Origin: Nitrolancea sp.
GTDB taxonomy: Bacteria > Chloroflexota > Chloroflexia > Thermomicrobiales > Thermomicrobiaceae
DNA length: 30,946 nt
NCBI GenBank assembly: GCA_036381095.1
Contig: DASVDN010000019.1
Coordinates: 1-30,946 of the forward strand
Direction of reading: 5' to 3'
Shown: positions 12,789-30,946 of the stretch, piece by piece
Position numbering within the stretch: the first letter of the stretch is position 1
Layout of the letters: each line of letters opens with the position of its first letter
Made by a program: the position numbers and the translations under genes
The notes under the pieces: model-generated
The model's database searches: none
Seen by the model: the letters and a program-made list of their open reading frames with translations, nothing else
Told to the model about the DNA's origin: nothing

Positions 12789-12819
12789 AACCAGTCTCTT
12801 CTATGCACGTGACGCTCGC

Positions 12820-13767: not shown

Positions 13768-13783
13768 TGTTCACCCTCGCCAG

Positions 13784-13814
13784 GCGCCAGAGCGTCAGAT
13801 CGACGCCCTGGCGC
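13784..13814. other. Intercistronic stem-loop after the module 2 binding-protein gene
   Basis: GCGCCAG-a-GCGTC-agatc-GACGC-c-CTGGCGC; no U tract. Confidence 0.6.
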
Positions 13815-13845
13815 TGCACGATTCCAATCCGCGTTGCGCAGCAGA

Positions 13846-15777
13846 CTAGGTGGTGCGCCAGAGCTTCCAGGTATCCCAGTACTGCCACATGGCGTTCGGT
13901 TGGTAGCCCTGCAAGTTCGACTTGACCAGGATCAGATCGCGAGGGAAGCCGAACCAGAAGGCTGGCATGTCGTCGGCAATGATCTTCTGGAAAGTCCAGA
14001 GGTCATCTTTCTGCTTCTTGAGATCGGGCTGGCGAATGATCAGGTCGAGCGCTTTGTCGGCATCCGGATTCGACCATGCGCCGAAATTGCGCCCCTGGGG
14101 ATTGGTGCGCGGATCCCAGGTGCTGTAGTAGTAGGTGTAGTCGCTGAACCCGGCGAAGAGGATGCGGCTGTAGAAATAGAGATCCCAATCGAATGTCTTC
14201 TGCCAGCGATCCTTCAGCGCGGCTGCTTCGAGCGTGTCGATCTGCATCTGAATGCCAAGCTTGCGGAAGTCCTCCTGCACCGAAACGGCAATGCGATCGA
14301 CCGGATACTGGTTGCCGTTGGAGACGATCGCATTGAGCGTGATCGGCTTACCGTCCTTGCCCATGAGATTGCCGTCACTGCCTGCCTTGTATCCGGCAGC
14401 TTCCAGCATCTGCTGCGCCTTGGCCTGATCGTAGTCAGGACTCTTGAGATCGGTGTCATATGCCCAGGGGAAAGCGATCGAACCGATCTTCGTCTCATCG
14501 ACAAACCCCTTGAAGACCGCCTGCGCGTAGCCCTTTCGGTCGATGCCCGTCGAGAGCGCCTGCCGCACTGCCTTGTCGCTGAAGAAATCGGGGTGCGACG
14601 ACTTTGGATTCTTGAAGTTAATCCAGGCGCACATGAAGGCGACGGCATAGGCGCTATAGAGAAGCCCATCCTGGTTCTTGACCTGATCGACATCGGTCGC
14701 GGTGAGCGGCCAGAGGAGATCCGTCTCGTTGTTCAGCCAGGCGGTCAGCCGGTCCTGAGACTGATCGACCTCCTTGAAGATCAAGCGGTTGAAGTGCGGT
14801 TTGCCCTGAAAGTAGTTTTCGTTGCGGCTGTACTGTAGGTTCGGCGGGCTGGCGCCTGGATCGTACTTTTCCTGCTTCCACTGGCCGGTGCCGATGAGCA
14901 TGTTCGTATCGTAGGGAAAACCTTTCAGCGTCTTGGCGCCATTCGCGCCCTTGCCCGAGTCCCAGTACTCGCCGAACTGCTTCTTCTGCAGCATGAACTG
15001 ATTACTGGCGTTCAACACCCAGTCGCCCGAAGTGTCGCTCAACGGGAACTTAACCGTGTGCGGGTCGACCACGACCGGATCATCCTTCATCAGCACGAAG
15101 AAGCGCGCGACACCGCTCTCGGGGTCGTCACGATAGACGACCATCGAGAAGGCGACGTCATCGGCCGTGAAGTCAGTGCCATCCTGCCACTTGATGTCGT
15201 CACGCAGCGTGAAGGTGTACGTCTTGCCGTCGGCGGTGGTTTCCCAGCTCTTGGCCAGCCACGGCTTCGGATCGAGCGTATATTCGTCGATCCAGACGAG
15301 CGGGTCGTAGGAGAATGTATAGGGCGAGTACGAGTTGAGCGCGGCCGGGTTCAGATCGCTCAAGTCCTCGAAGCGGATGAGCGTAATCAGATCACTATCA
15401 ACCGGTGTGCCGCTGTATTTCGGGTAGGGGTCGGTCGTGAGCTTGAGTTTGCCGAGCGTCTGGCCCGCCGCGATCGGGCTCGCTGCCGAACTGGGCGCGG
15501 CGGATGTCGCGGCCGTGGTCGCCGCCTGCGTTCCGACTGCCACCTGCGGAGCGCTGGTCGGCGCCGGGGCCGAGAGATTGACGGTGGGGGTCGGGCTTCC
15601 GGCCGATTTGCCGCCACAGGCGGCAAGCAACGCGGCTGCGCTTGCCACGCCACCGAGGATAAAGGTGCGGCGCCGGAAGCGGGTAGCCCGCAACGCGGCA
15701 CCAAAACCGACACTTTGATTGTTCAGATCCGATCCAACCCTCGACTGCACCAATTCGTCCGGTCGCCTGTCCACCAT
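13846..15777 (-). CDS. ABC module 2 solute-binding protein (family 5), Tat lipoprotein
   Basis: RRRTFI twin-Arg, LLAAC lipobox, Pro/Ala/Thr linker, PWLAKSWET..TYTFTLRDDIKWQDGTDFTADDV, IGTGQW. RBS GGAGG before ATG 15777; the ORF track starts at 15798. Confidence 0.9.
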   Translation of the reverse strand: MVDRRPDELVQSRVGSDLNNQSVGFGAALRATRFRRRTFILGGVASAAALLAACGGKSAGSPTPTVNLSAPAPTSAPQVAVGTQAATTAATSAAPSSAASPIAAGQTLGKLKLTTDPYPKYSGTPVDSDLITLIRFEDLSDLNPAALNSYSPYTFSYDPLVWIDEYTLDPKPWLAKSWETTADGKTYTFTLRDDIKWQDGTDFTADDVAFSMVVYRDDPESGVARFFVLMKDDPVVVDPHTVKFPLSDTSGDWVLNASNQFMLQKKQFGEYWDSGKGANGAKTLKGFPYDTNMLIGTGQWKQEKYDPGASPPNLQYSRNENYFQGKPHFNRLIFKEVDQSQDRLTAWLNNETDLLWPLTATDVDQVKNQDGLLYSAYAVAFMCAWINFKNPKSSHPDFFSDKAVRQALSTGIDRKGYAQAVFKGFVDETKIGSIAFPWAYDTDLKSPDYDQAKAQQMLEAAGYKAGSDGNLMGKDGKPITLNAIVSNGNQYPVDRIAVSVQEDFRKLGIQMQIDTLEAAALKDRWQKTFDWDLYFYSRILFAGFSDYTYYYSTWDPRTNPQGRNFGAWSNPDADKALDLIIRQPDLKKQKDDLWTFQKIIADDMPAFWFGFPRDLILVKSNLQGYQPNAMWQYWDTWKLWRTT

Positions 15778-15945
15778 GTTGCCTCCGTTGCACGTCAAGA
15801 CGACTCAGCCTGAAGCGATAATGCGCCTCAAGGAGCATGGACCCTGCTGAATACCCCTCCTCTTGCCGATTCGGCCAATTCGTGAACCTAAATCACGCTC
15901 GAATACCGAGTCGGGACCGCTGATTGTTGGAACTGATACCGGATT

Positions 15946-16067: not shown

Positions 16068-17003
16068 TCAGTTGCCGCGCGTGCGCGGATCGAGGAAGTC
16101 ACGCAGCCCGTCGCCGACCAGGTTGAAGCCGAGAACGGTGAACGCCAGCGCGAGACCGGGAAAGGTGATGTACCACCAGGCGCTCTGGAAATAGGTGCGC
16201 GCGTCGTTGATCATCGCGCCCCACTCCGGCGAAGGCGGCTGCGCGCCGAGGCCAATGAAGGAAAGACTCGCCGTCGCGAGAATCGCGTAGCCGATGTCGA
16301 GCGTTACCTGCACGATCACCGGCGAGATCGCGTTCGGCATCACATGCCGGAAGAGCAGGCGCCAGTTCGAGCAGCCGCACGAACGCGCGGACTCGATGTA
16401 TTCGCGCGTGCGCACGGTCAGCACCTGGCCGCGAACCAACCGGGCATACCACGGCCAATAAACGGCGGAAAGTGCAATGACGGTGTTGCGCAGGCTTGGG
16501 CCAAGCGAGGCCGAAATCGCGATAGCAAGCACAAGGAACGGGAAGGCCAGGAAGAGATCAGTGAAGCGCATGAGGATGTCGTCGATGAAGCCGCCGAAGA
16601 AGCCGGATATTCCGCCAATCAACACGCCGAGCGTGACCGCGATCGTCAGGACGATCGCCGCGACGCCGAGTGAGATGCGCGCGCCGCTCATGACACGACT
16701 GAGCACGTCGCGCCCGAGACTATCGGTCCCGAACGGATGACTAAGGGACGGGCCTTGCAACTGGTCGTAAATCGCCGGCTTGAGTGGATTGTGCGGCGCG
16801 AGCGTCGGACCGAGCAGGCTGTCGAAGAGGAAGAGCGCGATCAAGAACACGCCCAACACATTGAGCCATTTGCCGCCGAAAAACTGGTGCAGCCCGCGCT
16901 TGAAGCGTTCGCCGCGACTATCCGGCAGCGCGAGTCGCCCGCTGAACAGTTTCTCGCGCGCGGCAATCGGATCGATCGACTCGGTCGTTGAATGTGTCGT
17001 CAT
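16068..17003 (-). CDS. ABC module 3 permease (DppC family, DdpC-like)
   Basis: HPFGTDSLGRDVLSRV, VQVTLDIGYAIL..LSFIGLGAQPPSPEWGAM, WWYITFPG, GDGLRDFLDP. Start overlaps the upstream stop (ATGA). Confidence 0.93.
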   Translation of the reverse strand: MTTHSTTESIDPIAAREKLFSGRLALPDSRGERFKRGLHQFFGGKWLNVLGVFLIALFLFDSLLGPTLAPHNPLKPAIYDQLQGPSLSHPFGTDSLGRDVLSRVMSGARISLGVAAIVLTIAVTLGVLIGGISGFFGGFIDDILMRFTDLFLAFPFLVLAIAISASLGPSLRNTVIALSAVYWPWYARLVRGQVLTVRTREYIESARSCGCSNWRLLFRHVMPNAISPVIVQVTLDIGYAILATASLSFIGLGAQPPSPEWGAMINDARTYFQSAWWYITFPGLALAFTVLGFNLVGDGLRDFLDPRTRGN

Positions 17004-18010
17004 GAGTAGGAGATCCTTGGGTCGAGAATCAAATAGGAGATATCGACCAGCAGGTTCATGAAGACGTAGATGAACCCGATGATCAGCGTCACCGCCATGA
17101 TCGCGTTGTAGTCGAATTGCGTGACCCCGGTTATCGCGTATCGGCCGATACCGGGCCAGGAGAAGATGATCTCAACCAGAATATCGCCGGAGAGGAGCAC
17201 GCCGATCTGCATGCCGATAACCGTGACCGTCGGCAGCAAGGCGTTGCGCAGCGCGTGCCGCATCACCGTCGTGCGCTCACTGAGTCCTTTCGAGCGCGCC
17301 GTGCGGATGTAATCGAGCCCGAGCGTCTCCAGCATTCCGGCGCGGACCATACGCGTGATCACCGGCAGCACCCCGAAGCCGAGCACGAAGGCGGGCATGA
17401 CCAGATGCTCCAGCGCCGTCCAGAAGAGCGGTAAGTTGCCGGTGATGAGCGCGTCGATGGTGTAGAGATGCGTGATGGAACGCGGCGGCGCGGTATTTAT
17501 CGGCAGCCGCTGGCCATCGGGCAGCCAGCCCAGCCTGGCGAAGAAGAGGAACTGGCACATGAGCGCCAGCCAGAAGACTGGGATCGCCAGACCCGAAACG
17601 GAGATGATGCGGCCCACGTAGTCGATGAGCGTGTTCGGTTTCAGCGCCGACACGATGCCGAGCGGAATGCCGGCCACGATCGAAAAGAGCAGTGCCGTCA
17701 GTGAGAGTTCGACGGTCGCCGGAAGGTAGCGCCCCAGGTCGGTTCGCACCGGCCGTAACGTCGAGAGCGACGTGCCGAAGTCAAGGGTGAAGATCCCCTT
17801 CATGTACTTTACGTACTGGACATAGACCGGCTGGTCAAGGCCGTACTGGTGGCGGATAAGCTTCACCGTGTCGGCGCTGGCGCGCGGCCCGGCAATGAGC
17901 CGAGCCGGATCGGCCGGCACGATGTGTGACAACGTGAACGTGATGATCGACAGTCCGATGAGCACGAAGATCACCGAGATCAAACGCTTCACCAGCAACT
18001 GTGCGAGCAT
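17000..18010 (-). CDS. ABC module 3 permease (DppB family, DdpB-like)
   Basis: SHIVPADPARLIAGPRAS, GLDQPVYVQY, PATVEL, LYTIDALITGN insert typical of DppB/DdpB, DYIRTARSKGL. Confidence 0.93.
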   Translation of the reverse strand: MLAQLLVKRLISVIFVLIGLSIITFTLSHIVPADPARLIAGPRASADTVKLIRHQYGLDQPVYVQYVKYMKGIFTLDFGTSLSTLRPVRTDLGRYLPATVELSLTALLFSIVAGIPLGIVSALKPNTLIDYVGRIISVSGLAIPVFWLALMCQFLFFARLGWLPDGQRLPINTAPPRSITHLYTIDALITGNLPLFWTALEHLVMPAFVLGFGVLPVITRMVRAGMLETLGLDYIRTARSKGLSERTTVMRHALRNALLPTVTVIGMQIGVLLSGDILVEIIFSWPGIGRYAITGVTQFDYNAIMAVTLIIGFIYVFMNLLVDISYLILDPRISYS

Positions 18011-18033
18011 GGCTCGACCTCACCTTCTTTCGT

Positions 18034-18076
18034 CTCCGGGTTCACGATGCGCCCGCGCGCGGTCGCGAACCCGGAG
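18034..18076. other. Intercistronic stem-loop after the module 3 binding-protein gene
   Basis: Perfect 10-bp arms CTCCGGGTTC / GAACCCGGAG enclosing a further GC-rich stem. Confidence 0.6.
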
Positions 18077-18100
18077 CTGTTCGGTTGGTCGCTCTCCGAT

Positions 18101-19924
18101 CTACTTCACCTTGTACATGTTGTAGAAGTAGTATGAGTTCAGATAGATCGGGTTCCACTCGAACCCACGGACCTTCGCGTTCATGACCGTGTACCACTGA
18201 ATCGTGCCCCAGAAGATCGCGGGCGGGTCGAGTTCGGTCATGATGTTCTGGGCTTCGGCCAGCAGCTTGTTATAGTCCGCGTCCGAGACGCCTGGCGCGA
18301 CCGTCTCGAGGATCTGGTCGAGCCGCGGATTGTTGTAATAGCCGACGTTTGACCCAGCGCTCCCCGCCGACTTGGAGTAGAAGTTCGGGTAGATCTCGTT
18401 GTAGCCATCGTTGTAGTCCGGCCACCAACCCCAGTCACCGAAGATGTCGGGGCGCTGGGCCGGCGGGGAATCGCCGTAGGCCAGGTTCGTTTCGGCCGAG
18501 CGCTCGACTTCGCGAATATCCAGGTCGAAGCCGATCTGCTGCAAATTCGCCTGCATCAACGTCGCGACCGACTTGGTTCCGTCGTCGCCGGAGGCAAGCA
18601 TCCAGCTGAATTTTTCACCCGGCTTGAACTGCTTGCTGATCAGTTGCTTCGCCTTGTCGAGGTCGGTCTTGTAGATAAAGACGTTCTTGTCGTAGCCACG
18701 CGTCGTCGGTGTCAGCGGGCCGTTGGTTTCTGTGACCAGTCCCTTATACACGCCGTTGCGCACATCATCATAGGGGAAGGCATAGCAAAAGCCCTTGCGA
18801 ACGTCCGGATCTTTCAAGCGATCACCGGCGTTCAAGGTCGACCAGTTGACATTGGTCGAGGGGTAGGCGATCACCTGGAGCGCTTTGTTCTGCTTCAGCT
18901 CGTCGACCGCCTTCGGTGTCAGGGCGTTGGTCAGCGCATCGACGGAGCCGCCGACGATCAACTGCTGGCGGGTCGCCGTGTCTTCAACGACGCGGAAGAT
19001 GATTTGGTCGAAGTGGTTACCATCCCAGCCGCGGTAATAGTCCTTGAACTGCTTGAGCACGATTTGCTCTTGCGGGTTCACCTGATCGGCGATGTAGGGG
19101 CCGGTGCCGACCATATTCTGGATAAACCATTGATGCGCCCAAGGGTCTTGATCGGTCTTGTGCTTGTCGACCGCGTCGGGGCTCACGATGAACGGGCCAT
19201 ACTCCGAGGCGACCGCCGCCTCGAAGATCGGGTTTGCGGTCTTGAGCTTGAACTTGACGGTCTTGGCATCCGGCGCGGTGATGTCGGTATCCGGATTGTC
19301 GACGAAGCGGCCGATCACGTCGTGCGGGCCGAGCCCCATCTTGAGCATGCGCTGAAACGATTTGACGACAGCCGCGGCATCACAGACTGTCCCGTCGTGG
19401 AACTTGATGTTGTCAAAGAGCGTAAAGGTCCACTCGGTACCATCTGAACTCGGCCCCCACTCTTTGGCCAGCATTGGCTGATATTCAAACGTACTGTTTC
19501 CTTTGAGCATAATCAGCATCTCGTAGACGCCGAAGAAGACACAGCTGGCCTGGTTATCGTAAGCGGATTGCGGATCGAGATCGGCAGTCGCTCCCGGGAA
19601 GACGATGGTGAACGTCCCACCATTTACCGGCGTACCACCGGTTGGCGCGTTCGATGTCGCTCCGCTGGAGGCTGCAGGTGACGCCGATGCACTTGTCGCT
19701 GCAGTTGTCGACGACGAGGACGAGCCGGACGCGGCGGTTGAGCTGGAACCGCTTTGCGTCGTCGCGGTAGAAGACGATCCCTTGCCGCAAGCGGCAAGAA
19801 CCCAGCCGATCGTTGAGAACGAAAGGCCGAGAGCGAGACCGCGCGTAATGATGTCCCGACGCGACAGTCGATGAGACATCGCGTCGGCAATGAGCCGAAC
19901 CGCTCGGATATCGTTGTCCGGCAT
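18101..19924 (-). CDS. ABC module 3 solute-binding protein (family 5, DdpA-like), Tat lipoprotein
   Basis: SRRDII twin-Arg, VLAAC lipobox, Ser/Thr linker. Segments SFQRMLKMGLGP, APDAKTVKF, QNMVGTGP and VRGFEWNP resemble E. coli DdpA as recalled. RBS AAGGAGAG before ATG 19924; the ORF track starts at 19969. Confidence 0.9.
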   Translation of the reverse strand: MPDNDIRAVRLIADAMSHRLSRRDIITRGLALGLSFSTIGWVLAACGKGSSSTATTQSGSSSTAASGSSSSSTTAATSASASPAASSGATSNAPTGGTPVNGGTFTIVFPGATADLDPQSAYDNQASCVFFGVYEMLIMLKGNSTFEYQPMLAKEWGPSSDGTEWTFTLFDNIKFHDGTVCDAAAVVKSFQRMLKMGLGPHDVIGRFVDNPDTDITAPDAKTVKFKLKTANPIFEAAVASEYGPFIVSPDAVDKHKTDQDPWAHQWFIQNMVGTGPYIADQVNPQEQIVLKQFKDYYRGWDGNHFDQIIFRVVEDTATRQQLIVGGSVDALTNALTPKAVDELKQNKALQVIAYPSTNVNWSTLNAGDRLKDPDVRKGFCYAFPYDDVRNGVYKGLVTETNGPLTPTTRGYDKNVFIYKTDLDKAKQLISKQFKPGEKFSWMLASGDDGTKSVATLMQANLQQIGFDLDIREVERSAETNLAYGDSPPAQRPDIFGDWGWWPDYNDGYNEIYPNFYSKSAGSAGSNVGYYNNPRLDQILETVAPGVSDADYNKLLAEAQNIMTELDPPAIFWGTIQWYTVMNAKVRGFEWNPIYLNSYYFYNMYKVK

Positions 19925-19940
19925 GGATGCGCTCTCCTTG

Positions 19941-19955
19941 CTGCCGAATCGGCAG
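19941..19955. promoter_or_regulatory. 7-1-7 palindrome CTGCCGA-A-TCGGCAG (near-copies at 20149-20163 and 15863-15877)
   Basis: Direct reading of three copies sharing the core TGCCGAWTCGGC in the upstream regions of modules 2 and 3. Confidence 0.5.
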
Positions 19956-20040
19956 ATGCAGAACCACAATTGTCCAGGACATAAACGAGTTGAATCGGCG
20001 CAACGCCGATTCCGTTTCTCTTAATTCGTATTCTGCTTGA

Positions 20041-20480: not shown

Positions 20481-21866
20481 ATGGGTGACGTCGCGAAGAC
20501 CTCGGCTGCGACCCCGATGCTCGAACAAGAGGCGCTCGATCACGTATGGATCCATACGACCGAATGGATCCGCCTGGCAGAACAGGACGGGCTTCACGTC
20601 TTCGATCATGCCCATGGCAGCACGCTGGTCGACATTCACGGCAACGAATATCTTGATGGGATCTCGGGCCTCTGGGTTGTCAACGCCGGCCACGGACGAC
20701 AGGAGATCGGCGACGCGATGGCCGAGCAGGCCGGCAAGCTCGCCTATGCCTCCAGTGCGTCATATACCACCGTCCCGGCCGTCCAGCTGGCGAACAAGCT
20801 CGCCTCGATTCTTCCGGGCGACCTGAATCGAATCTATTTCTGCTCCGGCGGCTCCGAAGCGGTCGAGAGCGCTATCAAGATCGCCAAGCAGGTGCAGGCG
20901 ATGCGTGGCTTCCCCAAGCGCTACAAAGTCATCGCACGTCGTGGTAGCTACCACGGTATGACGATGGGCGCGCTCAGCCTCACCGCCAGCCGCAACGAAA
21001 CGTACTTCGGTCCGTTCGTCTACGGTGTCTATCACACACCCTCGCCGAATCACTATCGCAACGACTTCGGACTCGAAGGCGAAGCGGGCGATATCATGTG
21101 CGCCAATTATGTCGAGCAAGAGATCATCAACCAGGGGCCGGAAACGGTCGCGGCCGTCATCGGTGAGCCGATCTCATCAGCCAACGGTCTGCACGTGCCG
21201 TCGCCGAAATACTGGCAGCGGCTGCGCGAGATCTGCGACAAGCATGGCGTGCTCCTGATCATGGACGAAGTGATCAACGGCTTCGGCCGCACCGGCAAGA
21301 TGTTCGCGACCGAGCATTTCGGCATGCAGCCCGACATGATGACGATGGCGAAGGGTCTTTCGTCGGGCTACGCACCAATCGCCGGCGTCGCGGTCAGCGA
21401 TCGGGTTTTCGACGTCTTCAAGGACAAGAAGGAAGTGGCGCTCGGTCACCTGCTCACCTTCGGTGGTCAGGCTGTGGCCTGCGCTGCCGCACTCAAGAAC
21501 CTCGAGATCTTCGAGCGCGAAGGTCTGGTGCAGCAGAGCGCCGAGAAGGGCGACTACCTCTTCGAGCGGCTTGAAGGACTGCGCAGCCATCCGACCGTCG
21601 GCGACGTGCGCGGCCTCGGACTCTTCTGTGCCGTCGAGCTCGTGCAGAACAAAGCCACCAAGGCCAAGTGGACCAAGGAATCCGGCTTCACCAGCAAGGT
21701 CGACGAGCGGATCAATAAGAAGGGGATGCTCACGCGCACCTGGGACGTGCTGCATGTCGCCCCGCCGCTCACGACCAGCAAAGAGGAACTCGATCGGATC
21801 GTCCAGATCATCGACGAGAGCCTCAGCGAGACGGAATCGGATTTCGCCGACCAGGTCGGCAAGTAG
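20481..21866 (+). CDS. Class III PLP-dependent (omega-amine) aminotransferase
   Basis: YLDGISGLWVVNAGHG, SGGSEAVESA, SYHG, MDEVINGFGRTG, PLP lysine in MAKGLSSGY, TFGG, GDVRGLGL. RBS AAAGGAGGG. Confidence 0.93.
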   Translation: MGDVAKTSAATPMLEQEALDHVWIHTTEWIRLAEQDGLHVFDHAHGSTLVDIHGNEYLDGISGLWVVNAGHGRQEIGDAMAEQAGKLAYASSASYTTVPAVQLANKLASILPGDLNRIYFCSGGSEAVESAIKIAKQVQAMRGFPKRYKVIARRGSYHGMTMGALSLTASRNETYFGPFVYGVYHTPSPNHYRNDFGLEGEAGDIMCANYVEQEIINQGPETVAAVIGEPISSANGLHVPSPKYWQRLREICDKHGVLLIMDEVINGFGRTGKMFATEHFGMQPDMMTMAKGLSSGYAPIAGVAVSDRVFDVFKDKKEVALGHLLTFGGQAVACAAALKNLEIFEREGLVQQSAEKGDYLFERLEGLRSHPTVGDVRGLGLFCAVELVQNKATKAKWTKESGFTSKVDERINKKGMLTRTWDVLHVAPPLTTSKEELDRIVQIIDESLSETESDFADQVGK

Positions 21867-21893
21867 CCGAACGACCCGGTCTCACGTCGAAAT

Positions 21894-21930: not shown

Positions 21931-22072
21931 CCACGGACTCGGCCGCGGTTAAGAGGGACGAAGCTAATCGGCTTCGCCAGTCCCGCCCATCGAACCGCGC
22001 TCGTGATACTACGATCCCGGTGCTATACGGCATACGTGATTGAACGAGGATGGGACGGGGGAGGAGGCGACG

Positions 22073-22807: not shown

Positions 22808-22830
22808 CGGGCAGCGCTCCCGGCTGGCAA

Positions 22831-24552: not shown

Positions 24553-24982
24553 CGAGGTTTCCTCATCCTCGCAGCCGGCGAGGCATAGACAAGGGGGTCA
24601 CACCTTAGCGCGCATATGCGATGTGTGGCGCAACCTCCAGGGATTATGGCCATCTTCCCACGCGCTGCGACAGCATGTGCCGGAGGGGCTATCGATGGCA
24701 TCGGCGGATACGCCCTCCTATTGAATTAACGCCCATCCAGCGCTGACGGATACGAATTCCTCCAACAGGTAACGACCGAACCATCATCACAGAAACGAGA
24801 GCGCGTCGTAGAGCGTTGTCGAATGGGGGAGATGCGGAAGGTGATGAATTCGCGACAGCGGTGTGGATCAGGCGTCGCGGACATGAGGGGAGGGCGGTTC
24901 ACCGATCAATTCGTTCAGAAAAATAAGGGGTAGCGGTGCATGGTCTGACGACGCTTGTATGTACCGCTTTTGGCGAACGGCA

Positions 24983-25909
24983 CTAGCGACCCCATGCGCG
25001 TGGATCGAGGGCGTCGCGCAGGCCATCGCCGACAAAATTGAAGGCGAGCACCGTCAGGGCGATGAACAGACCGGGGTAGAAGCCGATCCACCACGCCTGG
25101 TTGTCTCGCATCTGGACGAACGCGATCTGCAGCATGTTACCCCAGGATGCGGTCGGAGGCTGGATCCCGAAGCCGAGGAATGAGAGCGTCGATTCCGTCA
25201 GAATCGCGGCCGGGATACTGAGCGTGGCTGCGACGATGATCGGACTGATCGCATTCGGCAGCAGGTGCCGGAAGATGATCGACGGCTTCGAGGCGCCGAT
25301 CGCTCGCGCCGCAATGGCAAAGTCGCGCGTCCGCAGCGTGAGAAACTCTCCCCGCACCAACCGGGAGACGTTCATCCAGCCGATCACACCGATGATGATG
25401 GCGATCACGGTCGCCGACGGGCGTTTGAACCCGACGAGCATCCCCATCAGGAAGAGGAGCGGCGGAAAGGCGAGCAGCATATCGGCCAGGCGCATGATCA
25501 GCATGTCGGTCCAGCGGCCGGCATAGCCAGCGACCGCACCGAGCACCGTCCCAACGCCGATCGCCACGCCAGTCGCCAGGAAACCGACTGTCAGCGAGAC
25601 GCGCGAACCGACAATAAGCCGCGACATCCAGTCCCGCCCGAGTTGGTCCGTACCCATCGGATGTTCGATGCTCGGTCCGGCCGGTCGACCGAATTTCGCC
25701 AGCGTCAGGTTCGTCGCATCCGGGTCGTAGGGGGTAATCCAGGGCGCCAGGATCGCGACGGCGAAGAGGAGCGCGAGGAAAATCCCACTCGCGAAGGCCA
25801 GGCGGTGACGGCGAAAGCGTCGCCAGAACAGCGTGCGCGGGCTGGCAACCGTCGTGGTGCTTCCGCGCTCCCAGTTGGCGAGGTCGGCTCGTTGAACTTC
25901 GACACTCAT
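24983..25909 (-). CDS. ABC module 4 permease (DppC/OppC family)
   Basis: HPMGTDQLGRDWMSRL, TESTLSFLGFGIQPPTASWG, GDGLRDALDPR. Confidence 0.93.
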   Translation of the reverse strand: MSVEVQRADLANWERGSTTTVASPRTLFWRRFRRHRLAFASGIFLALLFAVAILAPWITPYDPDATNLTLAKFGRPAGPSIEHPMGTDQLGRDWMSRLIVGSRVSLTVGFLATGVAIGVGTVLGAVAGYAGRWTDMLIMRLADMLLAFPPLLFLMGMLVGFKRPSATVIAIIIGVIGWMNVSRLVRGEFLTLRTRDFAIAARAIGASKPSIIFRHLLPNAISPIIVAATLSIPAAILTESTLSFLGFGIQPPTASWGNMLQIAFVQMRDNQAWWIGFYPGLFIALTVLAFNFVGDGLRDALDPRAWGR

Positions 25910-25930
25910 CGCACGTGCCCCTCGTCCGGC

Positions 25931-26911
25931 TCAGTCGAACCGCACACGCGGATCGACGACCGCGTAGAGGATGTCCGACAATAACGTTCCGATGAGGATC
26001 AACGTCGCCGACAGAAGCACAATCGCCATCACGGTTGGATAATCGCGCTGGGTCAACGACGCGACCGCCAGCTGGCCCATCCCCGGCCAGGAGAAGATGT
26101 TTTCGACGACAACCGAACCTTCGACCATAATGACCAGCACATAGCCGAGCAACGTGATGATCGGGATCAGCGAATTGCGCCAGGCATGCTTCAGGATCAC
26201 CACCCGCTCCGTCAGCCCTTTGGCTCGCGCGGTGCGGACATAGTCCTGCGGCATCACTTCCAGCATCGAAGCGCGTTGATAGCGCATGTACCCGGCGACG
26301 CCCGCCAGGGTGATCGAGATGACCGGCAGCACGTAGTGCAGCGCCGAATCCTTGAAATGCGCCCAGAAGCCGGGACCGACATAGGCGCTGTGCATCCCAT
26401 TGACCGGGAACCAGCCAATCTTCACTGAAAGGAAGTAGAGCAGCATCAGCCCGAGCCAGAACTGGGGAATCGAGATGCCGACGAAGTTGAAGGTGGTGAG
26501 CAGGTAATCGATCAACGAGTACTGCTTGACGGCTGAGATGATGCCGAGCGGGATCGCGATTAGGAGCGTCAACAGCAGCGACACCCCAGCCAGCTTCATC
26601 GTGTTAGGTAAGCGCTGCCTGATGATCGTCGAGACTGGCTGATTCATGCGTGTCGAGGTGCCGAAGTCGCCGCGCGCTACGAGCTTCAGCCAGTCGATAT
26701 ACTGCAAATAGACCGGTCGGTTGAGTCCGAGTTGTTCGCGCAGGCGCTCACGATCGGCCAGCGTCATGGTTTTACCGCTGTCGCGCGATTCGGCAAGCAT
26801 CGCCCCGACCGGATCGCCGGGCGCCCGCTTGAGCATGGCAAAGCAGATAATCGAGACGCCGAGTAGCAGCGGGAGCATCCACAAGAGCCGGCGCACGATG
26901 TAAGCGGTCAT
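25931..26911 (-). CDS. ABC module 4 permease (DppB/OppB family)
   Basis: APGDP, GLNRPVYLQY..GDFG, PQFWLG, DYVRTARAKGL, DPRV. Confidence 0.93.
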   Translation of the reverse strand: MTAYIVRRLLWMLPLLLGVSIICFAMLKRAPGDPVGAMLAESRDSGKTMTLADRERLREQLGLNRPVYLQYIDWLKLVARGDFGTSTRMNQPVSTIIRQRLPNTMKLAGVSLLLTLLIAIPLGIISAVKQYSLIDYLLTTFNFVGISIPQFWLGLMLLYFLSVKIGWFPVNGMHSAYVGPGFWAHFKDSALHYVLPVISITLAGVAGYMRYQRASMLEVMPQDYVRTARAKGLTERVVILKHAWRNSLIPIITLLGYVLVIMVEGSVVVENIFSWPGMGQLAVASLTQRDYPTVMAIVLLSATLILIGTLLSDILYAVVDPRVRFD

Positions 26912-26948
26912 TGAGCATCCTCACCCGCGAGTCGCGTTCGCTCCATCG

Positions 26949-28700
26949 CTACGCCTGCTTAAAGATCTTTTCCGGGAAGGCCCGCTGGTACCAACGGAAG
27001 CTCGGCGTATCGGCCGGGATACCGCCCAGCTTCTTGCTGACGACCCAGCCATCGACCGCGCAGTAGAGCGGCAACGCCGGCAGCGCCTTGAGCCGCACGA
27101 CATCCAGCTGGTGATAGACATCTACGCGGGCGTTCGGGTCGACGGTCGTTCGCCCTTGCTCAATGAGTTTGTCGACATCGGCATCCTTGAACCACATGTA
27201 GTCGTCACCGGGTGGAACGTTCTTCGAATCAAGTTCGCTGTAGACATCTGGGTCCTGTTCAAACGGGTGCGGCCACTCCTGCACTTCCATCGCGCGATCT
27301 TCCGGCTTCCCGTTTGGGTCGTGCCACATTCCCTCCAGCGTTGTGTATTCCAGCACGCTCGGGGTTACCTCAATGCCGATCTGCTTGAGGGACTCTTGGA
27401 TGATCACCTGATCGTTCATGTATTCGGTGAAACCGGAGTACGTAATCAGAGTGAACGAAAGCTTTTGCCCATTCTTCTCCCGGATTCCATCTCCGCCCGC
27501 CTTCCAGCCGGCGTCCTCAAGCAGCTTCTTCGCCGCCTCGACATCGAACGGGTATTCCTTCTGGTAGTCGACCTCTTTGTAATTGTTGTATTTGTCGAGC
27601 GGACCAGTCGTGGCGTACTGGTTGTTCGCGATGAGTCCGCGCCCTTTGGTCACCGTGTCGGTTAGCGTCTTCTTGTCGATCGCCTGCGCAATCGCCTTAC
27701 GCACGGTCATGTCCTGCAGGATCGGATGTTTGTGATTGAAGGCGAGCGTGATCGGCGTGTAATACACGTAATTGTGGAGCACGAAATCCGGGCTCTTTTC
27801 GTAGCGCGGTTGCATCTCCGGCGGGGTGAACATCATATCGATCTCGCCTTTGTCCAGCGAGGCTGCCCCAGCGTCGGTATTCGCCATGAAATAGTTGGTC
27901 CAGCCGTCGGCAGCCGGTTTCCCCATGAAGTAGTCATCGTTGCGTTCGTATTTGATGTACTGATCGGGCTGCCATTCAACAAGCTTGTACGGACCCGTAC
28001 CGATTGGCTGCTTGTTGAACGGATCGGTGTTGATGTCTTTTGTCTTTTCGAGAATGTGCTTGGGGATGATGGCGATCTGCGAGAGACCGTAGAGGAACGG
28101 AGCATACGGCTCGCTGAGGGTGACGGTGACCGTCCGGTCGTCCGGCGCCGCCCAGGTGACGAACTTGTCTCCCACCTGCAACCGCGACGCATAGTTCGTT
28201 TTGGTGTTCGTGTCTTTGACCTTGTCAAAGGTGAAGAGTACATCGGCCGACGTAAATGGCTCGCCATCGTGCCATTTCGCCTCTACCAGGGTTAGTGTCA
28301 ACGTCAACGAGTCGTCGCTGTATTTCCATTCCTTGGCGAGATCGGGGATCTGATTCCCCTTATCGTCGTACTTCACAAGCTTGTTGAAGACGAGCCACTC
28401 GGTCCAGTATTCGCTCTGATCAATGATCGGGTTGCCGATCCCCTTATCGCCAAGGGTTGTGTTGGCGTTGATGATGCCACCCTTGCCCGAGGCGGCGGTA
28501 GCGCCACTCGCGCTCGTCGCGGCAGACGTGCCACCCGCCGCGGCCGGAGTATTCGAGGATCCGCTGCCGCAGGCCGCCAGCACCACTGCGATGGCAGGCG
28601 CCGCCAGGCCGAGCGCAGCGGAACGCCGCAGTATTGTTCGGCGCGTATAGTGTCGAGATGTTGCTTCCTGGATGAGGGAACGCACGAGCGGATCGTCCAT
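26949..28700 (-). CDS. ABC module 4 solute-binding protein (family 5), Tat lipoprotein
   Basis: TRRTIL twin-Arg, VLAAC lipobox, PDLAKEW, WHDGEPFTSADV, PIGTGPY. GAGGAGG abuts ATG 28706, so the second ATG at 28700 is the better spaced start. Confidence 0.9.
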   Translation of the reverse strand: MDDPLVRSLIQEATSRHYTRRTILRRSAALGLAAPAIAVVLAACGSGSSNTPAAAGGTSAATSASGATAASGKGGIINANTTLGDKGIGNPIIDQSEYWTEWLVFNKLVKYDDKGNQIPDLAKEWKYSDDSLTLTLTLVEAKWHDGEPFTSADVLFTFDKVKDTNTKTNYASRLQVGDKFVTWAAPDDRTVTVTLSEPYAPFLYGLSQIAIIPKHILEKTKDINTDPFNKQPIGTGPYKLVEWQPDQYIKYERNDDYFMGKPAADGWTNYFMANTDAGAASLDKGEIDMMFTPPEMQPRYEKSPDFVLHNYVYYTPITLAFNHKHPILQDMTVRKAIAQAIDKKTLTDTVTKGRGLIANNQYATTGPLDKYNNYKEVDYQKEYPFDVEAAKKLLEDAGWKAGGDGIREKNGQKLSFTLITYSGFTEYMNDQVIIQESLKQIGIEVTPSVLEYTTLEGMWHDPNGKPEDRAMEVQEWPHPFEQDPDVYSELDSKNVPPGDDYMWFKDADVDKLIEQGRTTVDPNARVDVYHQLDVVRLKALPALPLYCAVDGWVVSKKLGGIPADTPSFRWYQRAFPEKIFKQA

Positions 28701-28802
28701 GACCATCTCCTCCTCGATAGACGAGCGTACGCATGAGACTCAAGAAGCGTAACGACACGAGGTGAGCGAGCACCGATAGACCTTCGTACGAGGGCGTCTC
28801 GG

Positions 28803-29951
28803 CTAGGCATCGACGGTCGGAGCGGCATCTCCTTCTGCTTTTTTCGAGGGGGTCGTCCCGAGCTTATGGTTTAGCACCAGCGTCGCCAGCACATCCATGA
28901 TGATGCGCGTGCCAAGCTGGGCCGTGTTGTTCGATACGTCGTATGGTGGCGATACCTCGACAACCTCCATGCCGGCCAACCCTTCACTGGTGATCATCTT
29001 CACCAGGCGCATCACCTCGCGCGGCAGGAAGCCGCCCGGCTCCGGTGTTCCGGTGCCCGGTGCGAAGGCAGGATCGATGCAATCGATATCGAAGCTGAGA
29101 TAGACACACTTCGCGTTCTTCCAGGCGATCTCCAGCGCGTACTCCGCGATCCGATCGACCCCGAAACGATCAACGTCATCCAATGTGATGACCGTGGCCT
29201 GCCGTTCGCGGGCGTTCTTCAGCCCTTCACGCGAGCCGGTCCAACCACCGATGCCGATCTGCACCAGGTTGCTGGGCGGTGCGTTCTCGATGTTCGTGGC
29301 GTGGAAGAAGGGCGAGCCGTGCATCCGCTCGTCGAGAGAATATTCACTCAGATCGCTATGACGGTCGAAGTGAATGATGCCGACATTGCCGTCGATATGG
29401 GGCGCGATACCGCGAATATCGGGATAGCCGATCGAGTGATCGCCGCCGAGAACGACCGGAAAAACGTCTCGCTCGTGCAGATAGCCGATCGCGAGCGCGA
29501 TCTGATCGAAGCTCTTCTCGATGTTGGCCGGGATGACGGAAACGTCGCCGACATCGACGATTGTCAGCGACTCGCCCAGATCGATCCCCAGACTCGGGTT
29601 GTAACTGCCGGACGATGATTGCCGCATCGCCTGTGGACCAAAGCGCGTGCCAGATCGGAACGTCGTGCCGGTGTCGAGCGGCACGCCCATGATCGCGACA
29701 TCCTGGCCGCCGAGCTCGCGCATGTCTGCCAGGAAGGGAGAAGACATGAAGAAACCGCTGTTGGCAAATCCCCAGCGGCTACGGTTGAAGAGTGGAATCT
29801 TGCGGTCACGAATCGACGCTGCGGACTCGAGGCCGAACTCGAGCGCCTGGCGGCTACGCTCATCGGCACGAGCCGACGAGATCTCCGCCTCCGCCTGCAT
29901 CGCGCGGGTGCCATCGAGGTCGTCTCGAGAAATGCGTCCGTCCTGTCGCAT
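28803..29951 (-). CDS. Ureohydrolase (arginase/agmatinase superfamily), guanidine hydrolase GdmH-like scaffold
   Basis: Binuclear metal ligands intact: GGDHS, HFDRHSD, SFDIDCID, plus EVSPPYD. N-terminal GLESAASIRDRKIP and IPANIEKSFDQI, DERMH..FHATN, NLVQIGIGGW resemble Synechocystis GdmH (Sll1077) as recalled. Confidence 0.9.
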   Translation of the reverse strand: MRQDGRISRDDLDGTRAMQAEAEISSARADERSRQALEFGLESAASIRDRKIPLFNRSRWGFANSGFFMSSPFLADMRELGGQDVAIMGVPLDTGTTFRSGTRFGPQAMRQSSSGSYNPSLGIDLGESLTIVDVGDVSVIPANIEKSFDQIALAIGYLHERDVFPVVLGGDHSIGYPDIRGIAPHIDGNVGIIHFDRHSDLSEYSLDERMHGSPFFHATNIENAPPSNLVQIGIGGWTGSREGLKNARERQATVITLDDVDRFGVDRIAEYALEIAWKNAKCVYLSFDIDCIDPAFAPGTGTPEPGGFLPREVMRLVKMITSEGLAGMEVVEVSPPYDVSNNTAQLGTRIIMDVLATLVLNHKLGTTPSKKAEGDAAPTVDA

Positions 29952-30235
29952 CGTCTTGCACTCCCATCATTCTGTGTCCGGTCAGGGCCGGCAATGCGGC
30001 GTCACCGACGCTCCGCAAAACACGAACGAAATCGGACGTATCAACCACTCGCGACGCGGTGGTACTCAGACTGACACCGTATGCACGGAATACCTAACAT
30101 CGTTTCGACGGGACTCTTCAGAACCCGAGGAGAATCGTATGAGAATCTCTGCGGAATACCGATATCGGTGTGCGCTCATCCCGCGCATCGCCAAGGGAAG
30201 CGGGGTATCGATTGATTAATATATTGCTTATCATT

Positions 30236-30264
30236 AGAGTATAGGGACGGCCTGATCTTGTCAA
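30236..30264 (-). promoter_or_regulatory. Putative sigma70-type promoter for the ureohydrolase-module 4 operon
   Basis: Minus-strand TTGACA-N17-TACTCT (or N15-TATACT), followed by an AT-rich tract at 30201-30235. Confidence 0.6.
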
Positions 30265-30355
30265 GCAAGCAACGCCGCAGCGGAGCGGGACGGCAACGTC
30301 AACGGCACCAAACGATGTTGAGGAACCCTGGTCCTTGCGACTGGGGGAAATCAGG

Positions 30356-30946
30356 CTAATCTCGCGGGCGCGGGGAGCGCGGGTCGCCAATGACTTCGCT
30401 GAGGATGAACGCTTCGACCTCTTGCAGGTGGCACAGCATGGCGGCTCGCGCCTGGTGCGGTTCCCGCTCGCGGATTGCGTCGAGGATCTCGCGATGGCTG
30501 ATGCAGGCACGGGCACGGCGCTCGGACGACGTGATGAAGTGCCGGTGGCCGTCATGGAGCAGTTGATTGAGGAGATGCACAACGCGCACGGCAACCTCGT
30601 TGCGCGAGGCGCGCGCGATTACGCTATGAAACTCGCGATCGAGAGCGACGGCGCGTTCGTTACCGGTCGCGCCATCAAATGGGCCGGACTGAAGATCGAC
30701 GACGACGGCCAGCGCATCGATATCCGCCGGTGTCGCCCTTAACGCGGCCAGCGCCGCGATCGACGGCTCAAAGATGATGCGCATCTCCCACAGATCACCG
30801 ACCACATCGTCACTCGCCTCCAACACCAGCGCCAGCGGCGAGATCACGTCCAGTTCAGAGAAATCACGCACGTAGGTGCCGCCACCGTGGCGCGCTTCGA
30901 CGATGCCGGATATTTCCAGCGCGCGCAACGCCTCGCGCAGCGAGGC
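30356..30946 (-). CDS. GntR family transcriptional regulator, FadR subfamily (5'-truncated by window edge)
   Basis: Frame is open to the edge (ASLREALRALE..G.V...HGGGTYV, winged HTH). FCD domain with EMRIIFE, DREFH, SRNE, SHREI and CHL (three-His metal-site pattern). Confidence 0.92.
   Translation of the reverse strand, partial: ASLREALRALEISGIVEARHGGGTYVRDFSELDVISPLALVLEASDDVVGDLWEMRIIFEPSIAALAALRATPADIDALAVVVDLQSGPFDGATGNERAVALDREFHSVIARASRNEVAVRVVHLLNQLLHDGHRHFITSSERRARACISHREILDAIREREPHQARAAMLCHLQEVEAFILSEVIGDPRSPRPRD

What the first reader, a model, noticed from the sequence alone, without database searches (positions are those of the whole stretch)
24983..30946. Candidate new catabolic system: GdmH-like ureohydrolase with an agmatinase-type pocket, its own peptide-class importer and a FadR regulator
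Seen: five co-oriented genes (FadR-type regulator, ureohydrolase, Tat-lipoprotein binding protein, two permeases), one strong promoter before the hydrolase, and all metal ligands intact. From recalled sequences: the scaffold, including the N-terminal GLE-x-AASI-x-DR-x-IP extension and IPAN-x-EKSFDQI, follows the Ni-dependent guanidine hydrolase GdmH. But the pocket differs: PGTGTP (Thr codon 29046-29048) replaces the PGTGWP of guanidinases, MHGSPF replaces MHTCPW, and the GELPHYAG loop is replaced by SRWGFANS. Guanidinase loci typically come with HypA/HypB-like Ni chaperones, a guanidine riboswitch and a TauA/NitT-type importer. None is here. Inference: an enzyme for a larger substituted guanidine (guanidino acid, biguanide, or Arg-derived peptide or metabolite) imported by a family-5 binding protein and sensed by a metal-binding FCD regulator.
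Basis: partly seen in the sequence, partly recalled or inferred. Interest (0 to 1): 0.75.

Follow-up and report, generated by a model that had tools for sequence, protein, structure and literature searches.

The report
Guanidino-compound import and hydrolysis island
A soil Thermomicrobiales bacterium has a relative of the nickel guanidine hydrolase whose pocket is opened like an agmatinase's; it is linked to peptide-type importers, an amine transaminase and a GntR/FCD regulator, so it probably releases urea from an unidentified substituted guanidine.

Summary
The regulator is cut by the contig end, and the promoter has a 15-nt spacer.

The hydrolase sits in the GdmH/guanidinase clade (50-51% identity to 7ESR and 9FEK). 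It belongs to a separate, well-supported Chloroflexota "T-type" clade. That clade has the agmatinase/GbuA-like DPAFAPGTGTP and MHG[ST]P motifs, and a hypervariable loop where guanidinases have an invariant GELPH[FY]AGINTF. It is an accessory gene, found in 116 of 192 genomes of the order.

In other Thermomicrobiales, T-type hydrolases lie directly beside orthologs of this window's other importer modules:
- Module 2, in one operon with an ortholog of the class-III amine transaminase at 20481-21866.
- Module 3.

So 11880-30946 reads as one island: several importers, the hydrolase, a transaminase and an FCD regulator.

Most likely function (about 0.55): uptake of substituted guanidines, release of urea (a urease gene is present), then transamination of the amine.

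The substrate and the metal are unknown. The importer has no ATPase gene of its own, and most of its orthologs lack a neighbouring hydrolase.

The parts
30356..30946 (-). GntR-family regulator with an FCD effector domain (C-terminal 196 aa; the wHTH is cut off by the contig end)
   Evidence: Pfam FCD E = 6.4e-24 and a partial GntR HTH. A full-length 244-aa ortholog (89% identity) holds the same position in G040. A 57% ortholog heads the Sphaerobacter operon L006. D-x3-H, SHRE and CHL motifs fit the usual FCD metal site (direct reading).
30238..30264 (-). Promoter-like site: TTGACA (30264-30259), 15-nt spacer, TATACT (30243-30238)
   Evidence: Read. Conserved in L005/G043 and G040. Not called by the consensus scan because of the 15-nt spacer.
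30211..30237 (-). Conserved AT-rich block just downstream of the -10 hexamer (CTAATGAtAAGC...TTAATCAAT); candidate operator
   Evidence: Conserved among the window, L005 and G040. Its function is inferred only.
28803..29951 (-). T-type GdmH-clade ureohydrolase (382 aa)
   Evidence: Sequence matches: 9FEK E = 1.6e-119 and 7ESR E = 1.3e-117. Fold match: 50-51% identity, TM 0.76-0.78. Tree placement. Motifs.
26949..28706 (-). Family-5 (PepT-type) substrate-binding lipoprotein with a Tat-like signal; module 4
   Evidence: SBP_bac_5 E = 1.7e-81. Below the cut-off of every NCBIfam equivalog. Nearest solved structure is AppA, 1XOC. The hydrolase is adjacent to its orthologs in G040, G048 and G054.
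25931..26911 (-). Permease (OppB/DppB type), module 4
   Evidence: BPD_transp_1 plus its N-terminal domain. Opp4B 339.9 bits, below the 450-bit cut-off.
24983..25909 (-). Permease (OppC/DppC type), module 4
   Evidence: OppC_N plus BPD_transp_1.
20481..21866 (+). Class-III amine/omega-amino-acid:pyruvate transaminase; a likely member of the island
   Evidence: Aminotran_3 E = 4.3e-104. Nearest solved structures are amine, putrescine and 4-aminobutyrate transaminases. A 66-68% ortholog heads the operon transaminase-PermB-PermC-SBP-hydrolase in L032/L036. It lies next to module 3 or module 2 in at least 11 genomes of the same genus.
16068..19969 (-). PepT module 3: binding protein 18101-19969, permeases 17000-18010 and 16068-17003
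   Evidence: Orthologs (54-64% identity) lie directly upstream of a T-type hydrolase in L012, L019 and G042.
11880..15798 (-). PepT module 2: binding protein 13846-15798, permeases 12820-13767 and 11880-12788
   Evidence: Orthologs (65-74% identity) lie directly upstream of a T-type hydrolase in L032, L036, L030, G028, G033, G034 and G036, and in the unpublished G029.

Best explanation
The locus is the regulated core of an island for scavenging organic guanidino compounds. Shown steps and inferred steps are marked.

1. An FCD-type GntR regulator controls a promoter in front of an operon encoding a T-type GdmH-clade ureohydrolase, a lipoprotein binding protein of the peptide/opine/nickel (PepT) class and two permeases. 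Control by this regulator is inferred.
2. A shared OppD/F ATPase encoded elsewhere powers the importer. This is inferred.
3. The importer brings in a guanidine that carries a substituent, not free guanidine. The hydrolase cuts it into urea and a primary amine. Its pocket keeps the agmatinase/guanidinobutyrase motifs and lacks the occluding Trp of guanidinases. The pocket features are shown; the reaction is inferred.
4. The genome's urease turns the urea into ammonia. The class-III amine:pyruvate transaminase at 20481-21866 removes the amino group of the other product. Both steps are inferred.
5. PepT modules 2 and 3 of the same window probably feed related compounds into the same route.
6. The hypervariable loop 58-67 of the hydrolase probably reads the substituent.

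The metal (Ni as in GdmH, or Mn) and the substrate are not known.
For: Clade membership:
- 9FEK E = 1.6e-119 and 7ESR E = 1.3e-117, against GbuA at 4e-50.
- 50-51% identity by fold search.
- The GdmH-like clade has 99% SH-aLRT support. The Chloroflexota T-type clade of 60 rows has 97% and is separate from the Trp-type sequences.

Pocket:
- All 120 closest homologs have PGTGTP and MHG[ST]P[FW].
- Positions that separate T-type from Trp-type are G212, F215, P294, A295, A297 and T302. Together they reproduce the GbuA motif DPAWAPGTGTP seen.
- Palatinszky et al. 2024 (PMC11410670) call a sequence a guanidinase only if it has Thr105 and Trp313, and list relatives without them as 'inferred not guanidinase'.
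- The loop after F55-x-R57 is invariant in Trp-type sequences and hypervariable in T-type.

Linkage to importers, in four different arrangements:
- Hydrolase-SBP4-B-C in G040, G048 and G054.
- FCD-SBP-B-C-hydrolase as a tight operon in Sphaerobacter L006.
- SBP3-B3-C3-hydrolase in L012, L019 and G042.
- Transaminase-B2-C2-SBP2-hydrolase in L032, L036 and four published genomes of genus g23.
- Modules 2, 3 and 4 and the transaminase all lie within 17 kb of the hydrolase in this window.

Other points:
- The transaminase is of the amine/putrescine/GABA:pyruvate type.
- A urease alpha gene is present at C368.
- The hydrolase is an accessory gene: 116 of 192 genomes, and absent from whole genera.
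- No SpeA-size arginine decarboxylase or pyruvoyl ADC was found.
- Soil and rhizosphere RNA-library contigs match the hydrolase, the binding protein and the hydrolase-SBP junction exactly.
Against: - No substrate can be read from sequence, and no member of the T-type clade has been assayed in the papers I could search.
- Orthologs of SBP4 at 50-70% identity in about 25 other genomes have no adjacent hydrolase and carry a fused OppDF ATPase instead. The pairing with module 4 is therefore confined to two genera.
- The genome has at least 43 family-5 binding-protein genes, so adjacency by chance is about 2-3% per gene.
- The commonest neighbourhood of T-type hydrolases is Acs-like ligase, hydrolase, DUF218 (19 loci), with no transporter.
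- PepT-class binding proteins are not known to carry small guanidino compounds.
- The Arg that caps the carboxylate in GbuA (R72) aligns with G115 here.
- The RNA-library matches may come from contaminating DNA.
- Loss of the Trp does not by itself prove loss of guanidine hydrolysis.
Confidence: 0.55

Rival explanations
1. Coincidental neighbours. The hydrolase acts on an internal metabolite such as agmatine or a guanidino acid made from arginine. The PepT modules are ordinary peptide importers that lie nearby only because this genome is packed with them.
For: - At least 43 family-5 binding-protein genes in 3.46 Mb, four of them in this window.
- Most SBP4 orthologs lack the hydrolase.
- Most T-type hydrolases have no transporter beside them.
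- TIGR01230 agmatinase scores 176.5 bits against a cut-off of 174.3.
Against: - Four different arrangements join a T-type hydrolase to a PepT module. Three of those modules are orthologs of modules clustered with the hydrolase here.
- L006, L019 and L032 are tight, co-directional operons.
- An orthologous transaminase travels with them.
- No arginine decarboxylase was found.
- The gene is absent from many genomes of the order.
Confidence: 0.2
2. Arginine-peptide route. The importers take up Arg-containing or Arg-derived peptides or opine-like conjugates. The hydrolase removes urea from arginine or from a peptidyl or acyl arginine, as proclavaminate amidinohydrolase does with its substrate.
For: - The transporter class is peptide/opine type, and AppA is the nearest solved binding protein.
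- PAH (1GQ6) is the next structural neighbour after the guanidinases, at 34% identity.
- D-aminopeptidase genes occur near some T-type loci.
Against: - The transaminase is of the amine:pyruvate type, not ornithine/acetylornithine type.
- No peptidase gene lies in the operon.
- No arginase-type recognition motifs for the alpha-carboxylate are evident by inspection. This was not a formal test.
Confidence: 0.12
3. Still a guanidinase. The enzyme hydrolyses free guanidine despite the Trp-to-Thr change.
For: - 50-51% identity to two proven guanidinases.
- Thr96, His211, Glu332 and all metal ligands are kept.
Against: - The Trp that published work treats as needed for guanidine specificity is absent from the whole clade.
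- The invariant GELPH[FY]AG loop is replaced.
- No guanidine riboswitch, NitT/TauT importer or HypA.
- The transporter class is unsuited to a three-nitrogen cation.
Confidence: 0.06
4. Metal supply. The PepT module imports nickel or a nickel chelate to load the hydrolase and the urease.
For: - The best NCBIfam hit of the binding protein is nickel_nikA.
- GdmH-type enzymes need Ni (PMC11410670, PMC11399263).
- Related S-type enzymes in Actinomycetota sit beside a ZnuA-type metal transporter.
Against: - The NikA score is 188.6 bits against a cut-off of 393. All four binding proteins of the window give similar sub-threshold NikA hits of 106-188 bits.
- Three different, mutually distant modules (23-30% identity) are linked to the hydrolase in different genomes. 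That fits varied substrates better than one metal.
Confidence: 0.07

Closest known systems
Ni2+-dependent guanidine hydrolase GdmH (Synechocystis Sll1077, PDB 7ESR/7OI1) and Nitrospira inopinata guanidinase (PDB 9FEK), with their loci (guanidine-I riboswitch, GhaA/GhaB, GimABC or an APC permease)
   Same: - Same clade and scaffold: 50-51% identity.
- N-terminal extension with GLE..AASI.DR.IP.
- IPAN.EKSFDQI and the DRH-type metal motif, with all six metal ligands.
- Thr96, His211 and Glu332 are kept.
- The locus logic is the same: importer, hydrolase, then urea to urease.
   Different: - Thr302 replaces Trp305/313.
- MHGSPF replaces MHT[CT]PW.
- DPAFAP replaces DCGFVP or DAAFVP.
- A hypervariable loop replaces GELPH[FY]AGINTF.
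- No riboswitch, no HypA/B-like genes and no NitT/TauT importer.
- The importer is PepT class and the regulator is a protein (FCD).
Pseudomonas aeruginosa guanidinobutyrase GbuA and guanidinopropionase GpuA (PDB 3NIO, 3NIP), and human GDAH/AGMAT
   Same: - PGTGTP and HG[ST] pocket motifs.
- The reaction gives urea plus an omega-amino compound, which a class-III transaminase then handles.
- A dedicated regulator and uptake genes accompany the enzyme.
   Different: - Only 34-35% identity.
- No GdmH-type N-terminal extension.
- The carboxylate-capping Arg72 aligns with Gly115 here.
- The Pseudomonas enzymes are Mn enzymes with LysR regulators.
Agmatinase SpeB (E. coli, PDB 7LBA/7LOX)
   Same: - Same fold and metal ligands.
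- PGTGTP motif.
- Database annotations call this protein 'agmatinase'.
   Different: - 30-31% identity.
- A different clade.
- No arginine decarboxylase partner was found.
- The gene is patchily distributed in the order.
Dimethylguanidine and metformin hydrolases DmgH/MefH (PDB 8RYI, 8SNF)
   Same: Ni-dependent ureohydrolases that act on substituted guanidines. They show that relatives of GdmH can shift substrate.
   Different: - 23-26% identity.
- They are heteromeric, with alpha and beta subunits.
- They are encoded with hypA/hypB and HupE.
Opp/Dpp/App/Nik (PepT-family) ABC importers
   Same: A family-5 binding lipoprotein and two permeases of OppB/OppC type.
   Different: - No ATPase gene in the locus.
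- Below the cut-off of every curated equivalog: NikA, Opp4A, DppA, OppA, GsiB and CntA.
- The ligand is unknown.

Membership tests
GdmH-type guanidine hydrolase (guanidinase) | Arginase fold with the six His/Asp metal ligands | tested here: met
   H172, D196, H198, D200, D288 and D290. PF00491 E = 2.3e-81. Model pLDDT 83.8.
GdmH-type guanidine hydrolase (guanidinase) | Branches with the characterised guanidinases rather than with SpeB, GbuA or arginase | tested here: met
   9FEK and 7ESR at E about 1e-118, against 4e-50 for GbuA. The GdmH-like clade has 99% SH-aLRT support. Within it, the T-type clade is separate from the Trp-type sequences.
GdmH-type guanidine hydrolase (guanidinase) | Thr97/105 together with Trp305/313, the pair used in PMC11410670 to call a guanidinase | tested here: not met
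   Thr96 is present, but the Trp position holds Thr302. This is true of all 120 nearest homologs.
GdmH-type guanidine hydrolase (guanidinase) | Ni2+ dependence with HypA/HypB-like loading proteins (GhaA/GhaB) | not testable with these tools
   No HypA was found, and CobW/HypB hits were only marginal, in a genome that is 82% complete. N. inopinata also lacks such chaperones, so their absence decides nothing.
GdmH-type guanidine hydrolase (guanidinase) | Guanidine riboswitch and a NitT/TauT (GimABC) or APC importer in the locus | tested here: not met
   No Rfam match at E <= 1 in 24000-30946, nor at gathering score in the whole window. The leader shows no excess folding, z = +0.77. The transporter is PepT class.
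Agmatinase SpeB | Reaches the curated agmatinase model cut-offs | tested here: inconclusive
   TIGR01230 scores 176.5 bits against 174.3, which is borderline. NF002564 scores 215 against 302 and fails.
Agmatinase SpeB | Works downstream of an arginine decarboxylase in polyamine synthesis | tested here: not met
   The only PF02784 hit is a single 439-aa frame, which I take by its size to be LysA-like rather than a SpeA-type arginine decarboxylase; this was not tested. There is no PvlArgDC. The genome is 82% complete. The hydrolase is missing from 76 of 192 genomes of the order.
Guanidino-acid hydrolases GbuA/GpuA/GDAH | PGTGTP and HG[ST] pocket motifs | tested here: met
   Alignment to 3NIO and the positions that separate T-type from Trp-type.
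Guanidino-acid hydrolases GbuA/GpuA/GDAH | Arg from the neighbouring subunit (GbuA R72) caps the substrate carboxylate | tested here: not met
   R72 of 3NIO aligns with G115 (role of R72 from PMC9772407). The variable loop 57-60 carries Arg residues that might do this job. That is inference only.
PepT-family (Opp/Dpp/Nik) ABC importer | Family-5 binding protein plus OppB- and OppC-type permeases | tested here: met
   Pfam hits.
PepT-family (Opp/Dpp/Nik) ABC importer | Own OppD/OppF ATPase genes in the operon | tested here: not met
   None in the window. There are about four OppD/F loci elsewhere in the genome. Distant orthologs of this module have a fused OppDF gene.
NikABCDE nickel importer | Binding protein reaches the NikA equivalog cut-off | tested here: not met
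   188.6 bits against 393. The other three binding proteins of the window score 106-184 bits.
FadR/FCD subfamily of GntR regulators | N-terminal GntR wHTH plus a C-terminal FCD domain | tested here: met
   FCD E = 6.4e-24 and the last 25 residues of the HTH. The full-length ortholog in G040 has both domains.

The most novel reading that the evidence does not exclude
The Chloroflexota T-type clade is a radiation of GdmH-scaffold ureohydrolases. A hypervariable lid loop tunes each branch to a different guanidino metabolite. Peptide/opine-class (family-5) ABC importers deliver those metabolites, and a dedicated amine transaminase processes the products. If so, soil Thermomicrobiales would be using a pool of organic guanidino nitrogen that has not been recognised, and PepT-type binding proteins would gain a new ligand class.
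Probability: 0.3. Interest if true: 0.7.

Novelty: new variant of a known kind. Interest (0 to 1): 0.55.

Why it matters
Guanidine hydrolases were discovered only in 2022, and surveys label their close relatives without the key Trp simply as 'not guanidinase'. This locus and its relatives give that unassigned clade a testable setting: uptake, urea release, transamination and an FCD regulator. They also mark one loop as the likely specificity element.

Finding the substrate would have three consequences:
- A family that databases uniformly call 'agmatinase' would be re-annotated.
- A nitrogen source for abundant soil Chloroflexota would be identified.
- A new ligand type might be added for family-5 binding proteins.

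Tried and rejected
- Riboswitch or structured leader before the hydrolase: no Rfam hit, folding z = +0.77, covariation term -0.87 on three sequences. Rejected.
- NikA-type nickel importer: the sub-threshold NikA hit is shared by all four binding proteins of the window. Not informative.
- Biosynthetic agmatinase: no arginine decarboxylase was found, and the gene is patchily distributed. Unlikely.
- The 50%-clustered representative search: it collapsed the whole GdmH clade into a few, mostly fragmentary, representatives. It was useful only for outgroups.
- Funck et al. 2022: not held in the library. The role of T97 and W305 is cited through PMC11410670.
- Pocket modelling and docking: the structure tool returns no coordinates, so only fold-level comparison was possible.
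- GbuA-type carboxylate cap: the Arg is not conserved.
- Named Synechocystis or Nitrospira sequences for the tree: none could be obtained. The Trp-type rows in the tree are two frameshifted, unnamed metagenomic representatives. The Trp-type set used for the motif and loop comparisons comes from Alphaproteobacteria.
- GH-like secreted protein (22831-24552) and dienelactone hydrolase (22040-22807), between the operon and the transaminase: not conserved in G040 or G048, so not counted as parts.


Full report
**What is there**

The window is the whole contig C19 of a 3.46-Mb, 82%-complete MAG. Database names and record titles of its nearest relatives place it in Thermomicrobiales. Near-identical DNA occurs in many soil metagenomes.

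On the minus strand lie five genes:
- An FCD/GntR regulator, 30356-30946, cut by the contig end.
- A 382-aa arginase-family hydrolase, 28803-29951.
- A family-5 binding protein, 26949-28706, with a twin-arginine stretch and an LAAC lipobox.
- Two permeases, 25931-26911 and 24983-25909.

Gaps inside the hydrolase-to-permease string are 96, 37 and 21 nt. There is no ATPase gene.

The promoter is TTGACA, a 15-nt spacer, then TATACT (30264-30238). It is conserved in two close relatives. The consensus scan did not call it.

No Rfam family matches anywhere in the window. The roughly 290-nt leader shows no excess folding or covariation.

**The enzyme**

The two best solved relatives are the Nitrospira inopinata guanidinase 9FEK (E = 1.6e-119) and Synechocystis GdmH 7ESR (E = 1.3e-117). 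GbuA follows at 4e-50 and SpeB-type agmatinases at about 1e-35.

An AlphaFold model (pLDDT 83.8) finds the same order by fold:
- 50-51% identity to the guanidinases.
- 34-35% to PAH, GpuA and GbuA.
- 30-31% to E. coli SpeB.
- 23-26% to metformin hydrolase.

All six metal ligands are kept, as are Thr96, His211 and Glu332.

Palatinszky et al. 2024 call a sequence a guanidinase only if it has Thr105 and Trp313. They list close relatives that lack these as 'inferred not guanidinase'. Here the Trp position is Thr.

This is not an isolated change. All 120 nearest homologs, at 68% identity or more, have PGTGTP and MHG[ST]P[FW].

In a maximum-likelihood tree:
- The GdmH-like clade is well supported (99% SH-aLRT).
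- The Chloroflexota T-type sequences form their own clade of 60 rows (97%).
- That clade is separate from a group holding Trp-type sequences, an Actinomycetota Ser-type (PGTGSP) and a few others.

Positions that are conserved within each type but differ between T-type and Trp-type are G212/T, F215/W, P294/C, A295/G, A297/V and T302/W. Together they give DPAFAPGTGTP, which is essentially the GbuA motif DPAWAPGTGTP.

The loop after F55-x-R57 is invariant in Trp-type enzymes (GELPH[FY]AGINTF). In T-type enzymes it is hypervariable. It differs between subclades and between the two paralogs of this genome, SRWGFANSGF here and NRRGYGNFSR on C405. An invariant catalytic core with one diversifying loop is what I would expect of a family that has spread over related substrates. 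This is inference.

**Is it housekeeping?**

The hydrolase is present in 116 of 192 genomes of the order. Whole genera of nearly complete genomes lack it (g8, 0 of 11).

The genome shows no SpeA-size arginine decarboxylase and no pyruvoyl ADC. A biosynthetic agmatinase role is therefore unlikely.

A urease alpha gene is present, so released urea can be used. No HypA was found and CobW/HypB hits were marginal. That says little, because N. inopinata also lacks such chaperones. The metal cannot be told from sequence.

**Linkage to transport: against**

- The genome has at least 43 family-5 binding-protein genes and only about four OppD/F loci.
- Orthologs of this binding protein at 50-70% identity in about 25 genomes of the order lack a neighbouring hydrolase. 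They are followed by a fused OppDF ATPase.
- The most frequent neighbourhood of T-type hydrolases is an Acs-like ligase upstream and DUF218 downstream, in 19 of 80 loci.
- The sub-threshold NikA hit of the binding protein is shared by all four binding proteins of the window, so it carries no information.

**Linkage to transport: for**

The order hydrolase-SBP4-PermB-PermC recurs in G040, G048 and G054. The FCD gene lies upstream of the hydrolase in G040 and in G043/L005.

Other Thermomicrobiales join a T-type hydrolase to different PepT modules in tight, co-directional operons:
- FCD-SBP-B-C-hydrolase in Sphaerobacter L006.
- SBP-B-C-hydrolase in L012, L019 and G042.
- Transaminase-B-C-SBP-hydrolase in L032 and L036 and in genus g23.

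Those modules turned out to be orthologs of the other modules of this same window:
- The L032 type matches module 2 (11880-15798) at 65-74% identity.
- The L012/L019 type matches module 3 (16068-19969) at 54-64%.

The class-III transaminase that heads the L032/L036 operon is 66-68% identical to the gene at 20481-21866. In at least 11 genomes of the same genus, that transaminase lies next to module 3 or module 2.

All hydrolases directly adjacent to a PepT module fall in one 41-row subclade of the tree (97%). L057, in an Acs-type subclade, has a PepT module about 3 kb downstream on the opposite strand.

The module-2 adjacency in G029 rests on an unpublished genome. The four other g23 genomes (G028, G033, G034, G036) show the same arrangement.

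I read 11880-30946 as one island: three importers, one transaminase, one hydrolase and one regulator.

**The transaminase**

It belongs to the amine/omega-amino-acid:pyruvate group. Its nearest solved structures are amine, putrescine, polyamine and 4-aminobutyrate transaminases. That suits removal of the amino group exposed when urea is cut from a guanidino amine or guanidino acid. It does not look like an ornithine or acetylornithine transaminase.

**Expression**

Contigs from soil and rhizosphere RNA libraries match the hydrolase, the binding protein and the transaminase without mismatch. Two pieces, 28652-28802 and 28779-28951, tile the hydrolase-SBP junction. DNA carry-over cannot be excluded, so this is only a hint of co-transcription.

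**Mechanism proposed**

The FCD regulator controls the promoter at 30238-30264. The operon makes the hydrolase and an importer that borrows a shared ATPase. A substituted guanidine is imported and split into urea and an amine. Urease and the transaminase finish the job.

- Shown: gene content, clade, pocket motifs, recurrent linkage.
- Inferred: the substrate class, regulation by FCD, the shared ATPase, the role of the loop and the metal.

I put this at about 0.55. The rivals are:
- Coincidental neighbours with an internal substrate, 0.20.
- An Arg-peptide or opine route, 0.12.
- Nickel supply, 0.07.
- A true guanidinase, 0.06.

**Comparison and novelty**

By descent the enzyme belongs to the GdmH clade, but it fails the Thr/Trp rule used to define a guanidinase. 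It therefore should not be filed as GdmH. It resembles GbuA, GpuA and agmatinase in its pocket motifs but not in overall sequence, and the GbuA carboxylate-capping Arg is missing.

I found no assay of any T-type member in the searchable literature. I rate it a new variant of a known kind. The strongest new point is the recurrent coupling of this clade to PepT-type importers and an amine transaminase.

The scan had flagged the same Trp-less variant in another genome (e1-5186482), without follow-up.

Noticed in passing
own genome C405:5778-6887 (-), with the upstream gene at about 6950-7390 (-); also L009:9540-9977, L013, L014, L018, L020: A second T-type hydrolase, 77% identical and with loop NRRGYGNFSR. 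It is preceded on the same strand by a conserved protein of about 145 aa with no Pfam match ('c7'). The pair recurs in seven loci.
   Followed up: partly
L080-L084 (Thermoleophilia/Actinomycetota loci): A Ser-type branch of the GdmH clade (PGTGSP, MHTTPW, loop GxQPAFAGINTF). It sits beside a ZnuA-type binding protein, an ABC ATPase and an ABC-3 permease, with a divergent GntR/UTRA regulator. This suggests a metal-supply link for that branch.
   Followed up: partly
L024:8090-11134; window 4324-5481: In a Chloroflexia MAG, a split ThDP enzyme, a PF04199 cyclase and a T-type hydrolase form one tight operon. The split ThDP enzyme is 33-38% identical to the ComD/ComE-like pair at window 4324-5481. 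This hints at a 2-oxo-acid decarboxylation step in some versions of the pathway.
   Followed up: partly
window 7837-28706 and the whole genome: The window holds four PepT modules without ATPase genes. The genome has at least 43 family-5 binding-protein genes but only about four OppD/F-type ATPase loci (C300, C103, C198, C402). Many importers must therefore share ATPases.
   Followed up: partly
window 22831-24552 (-): A 573-aa secreted protein with a weak glycoside-hydrolase-like N-terminal part and repeated C-terminal segments. It is not conserved at this position in G040 or G048. Related C-terminal repeats occur in proteins next to T-type hydrolases in other loci ('c9').
   Followed up: no
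window 6784-7692 (-) and 5564-6775 (-): A class-A beta-lactamase-like protein (128 bits, below the 200-bit cut-off) lies next to an MFS transporter and is divergent from PepT module 1.
   Followed up: no
19 of the 80 related loci, e.g. L033:7990-11982: The commonest neighbourhood of T-type hydrolases is an acetyl-CoA-synthetase-like AMP-binding enzyme upstream and a DUF218 protein downstream. An M55 D-aminopeptidase is often nearby.
   Followed up: partly
window 20000-30946: Soil and rhizosphere RNA-library contigs match the transaminase, the binding protein and the hydrolase exactly. The organism or close strains appear in many soil metagenomes and in one groundwater metagenome.
   Followed up: partly
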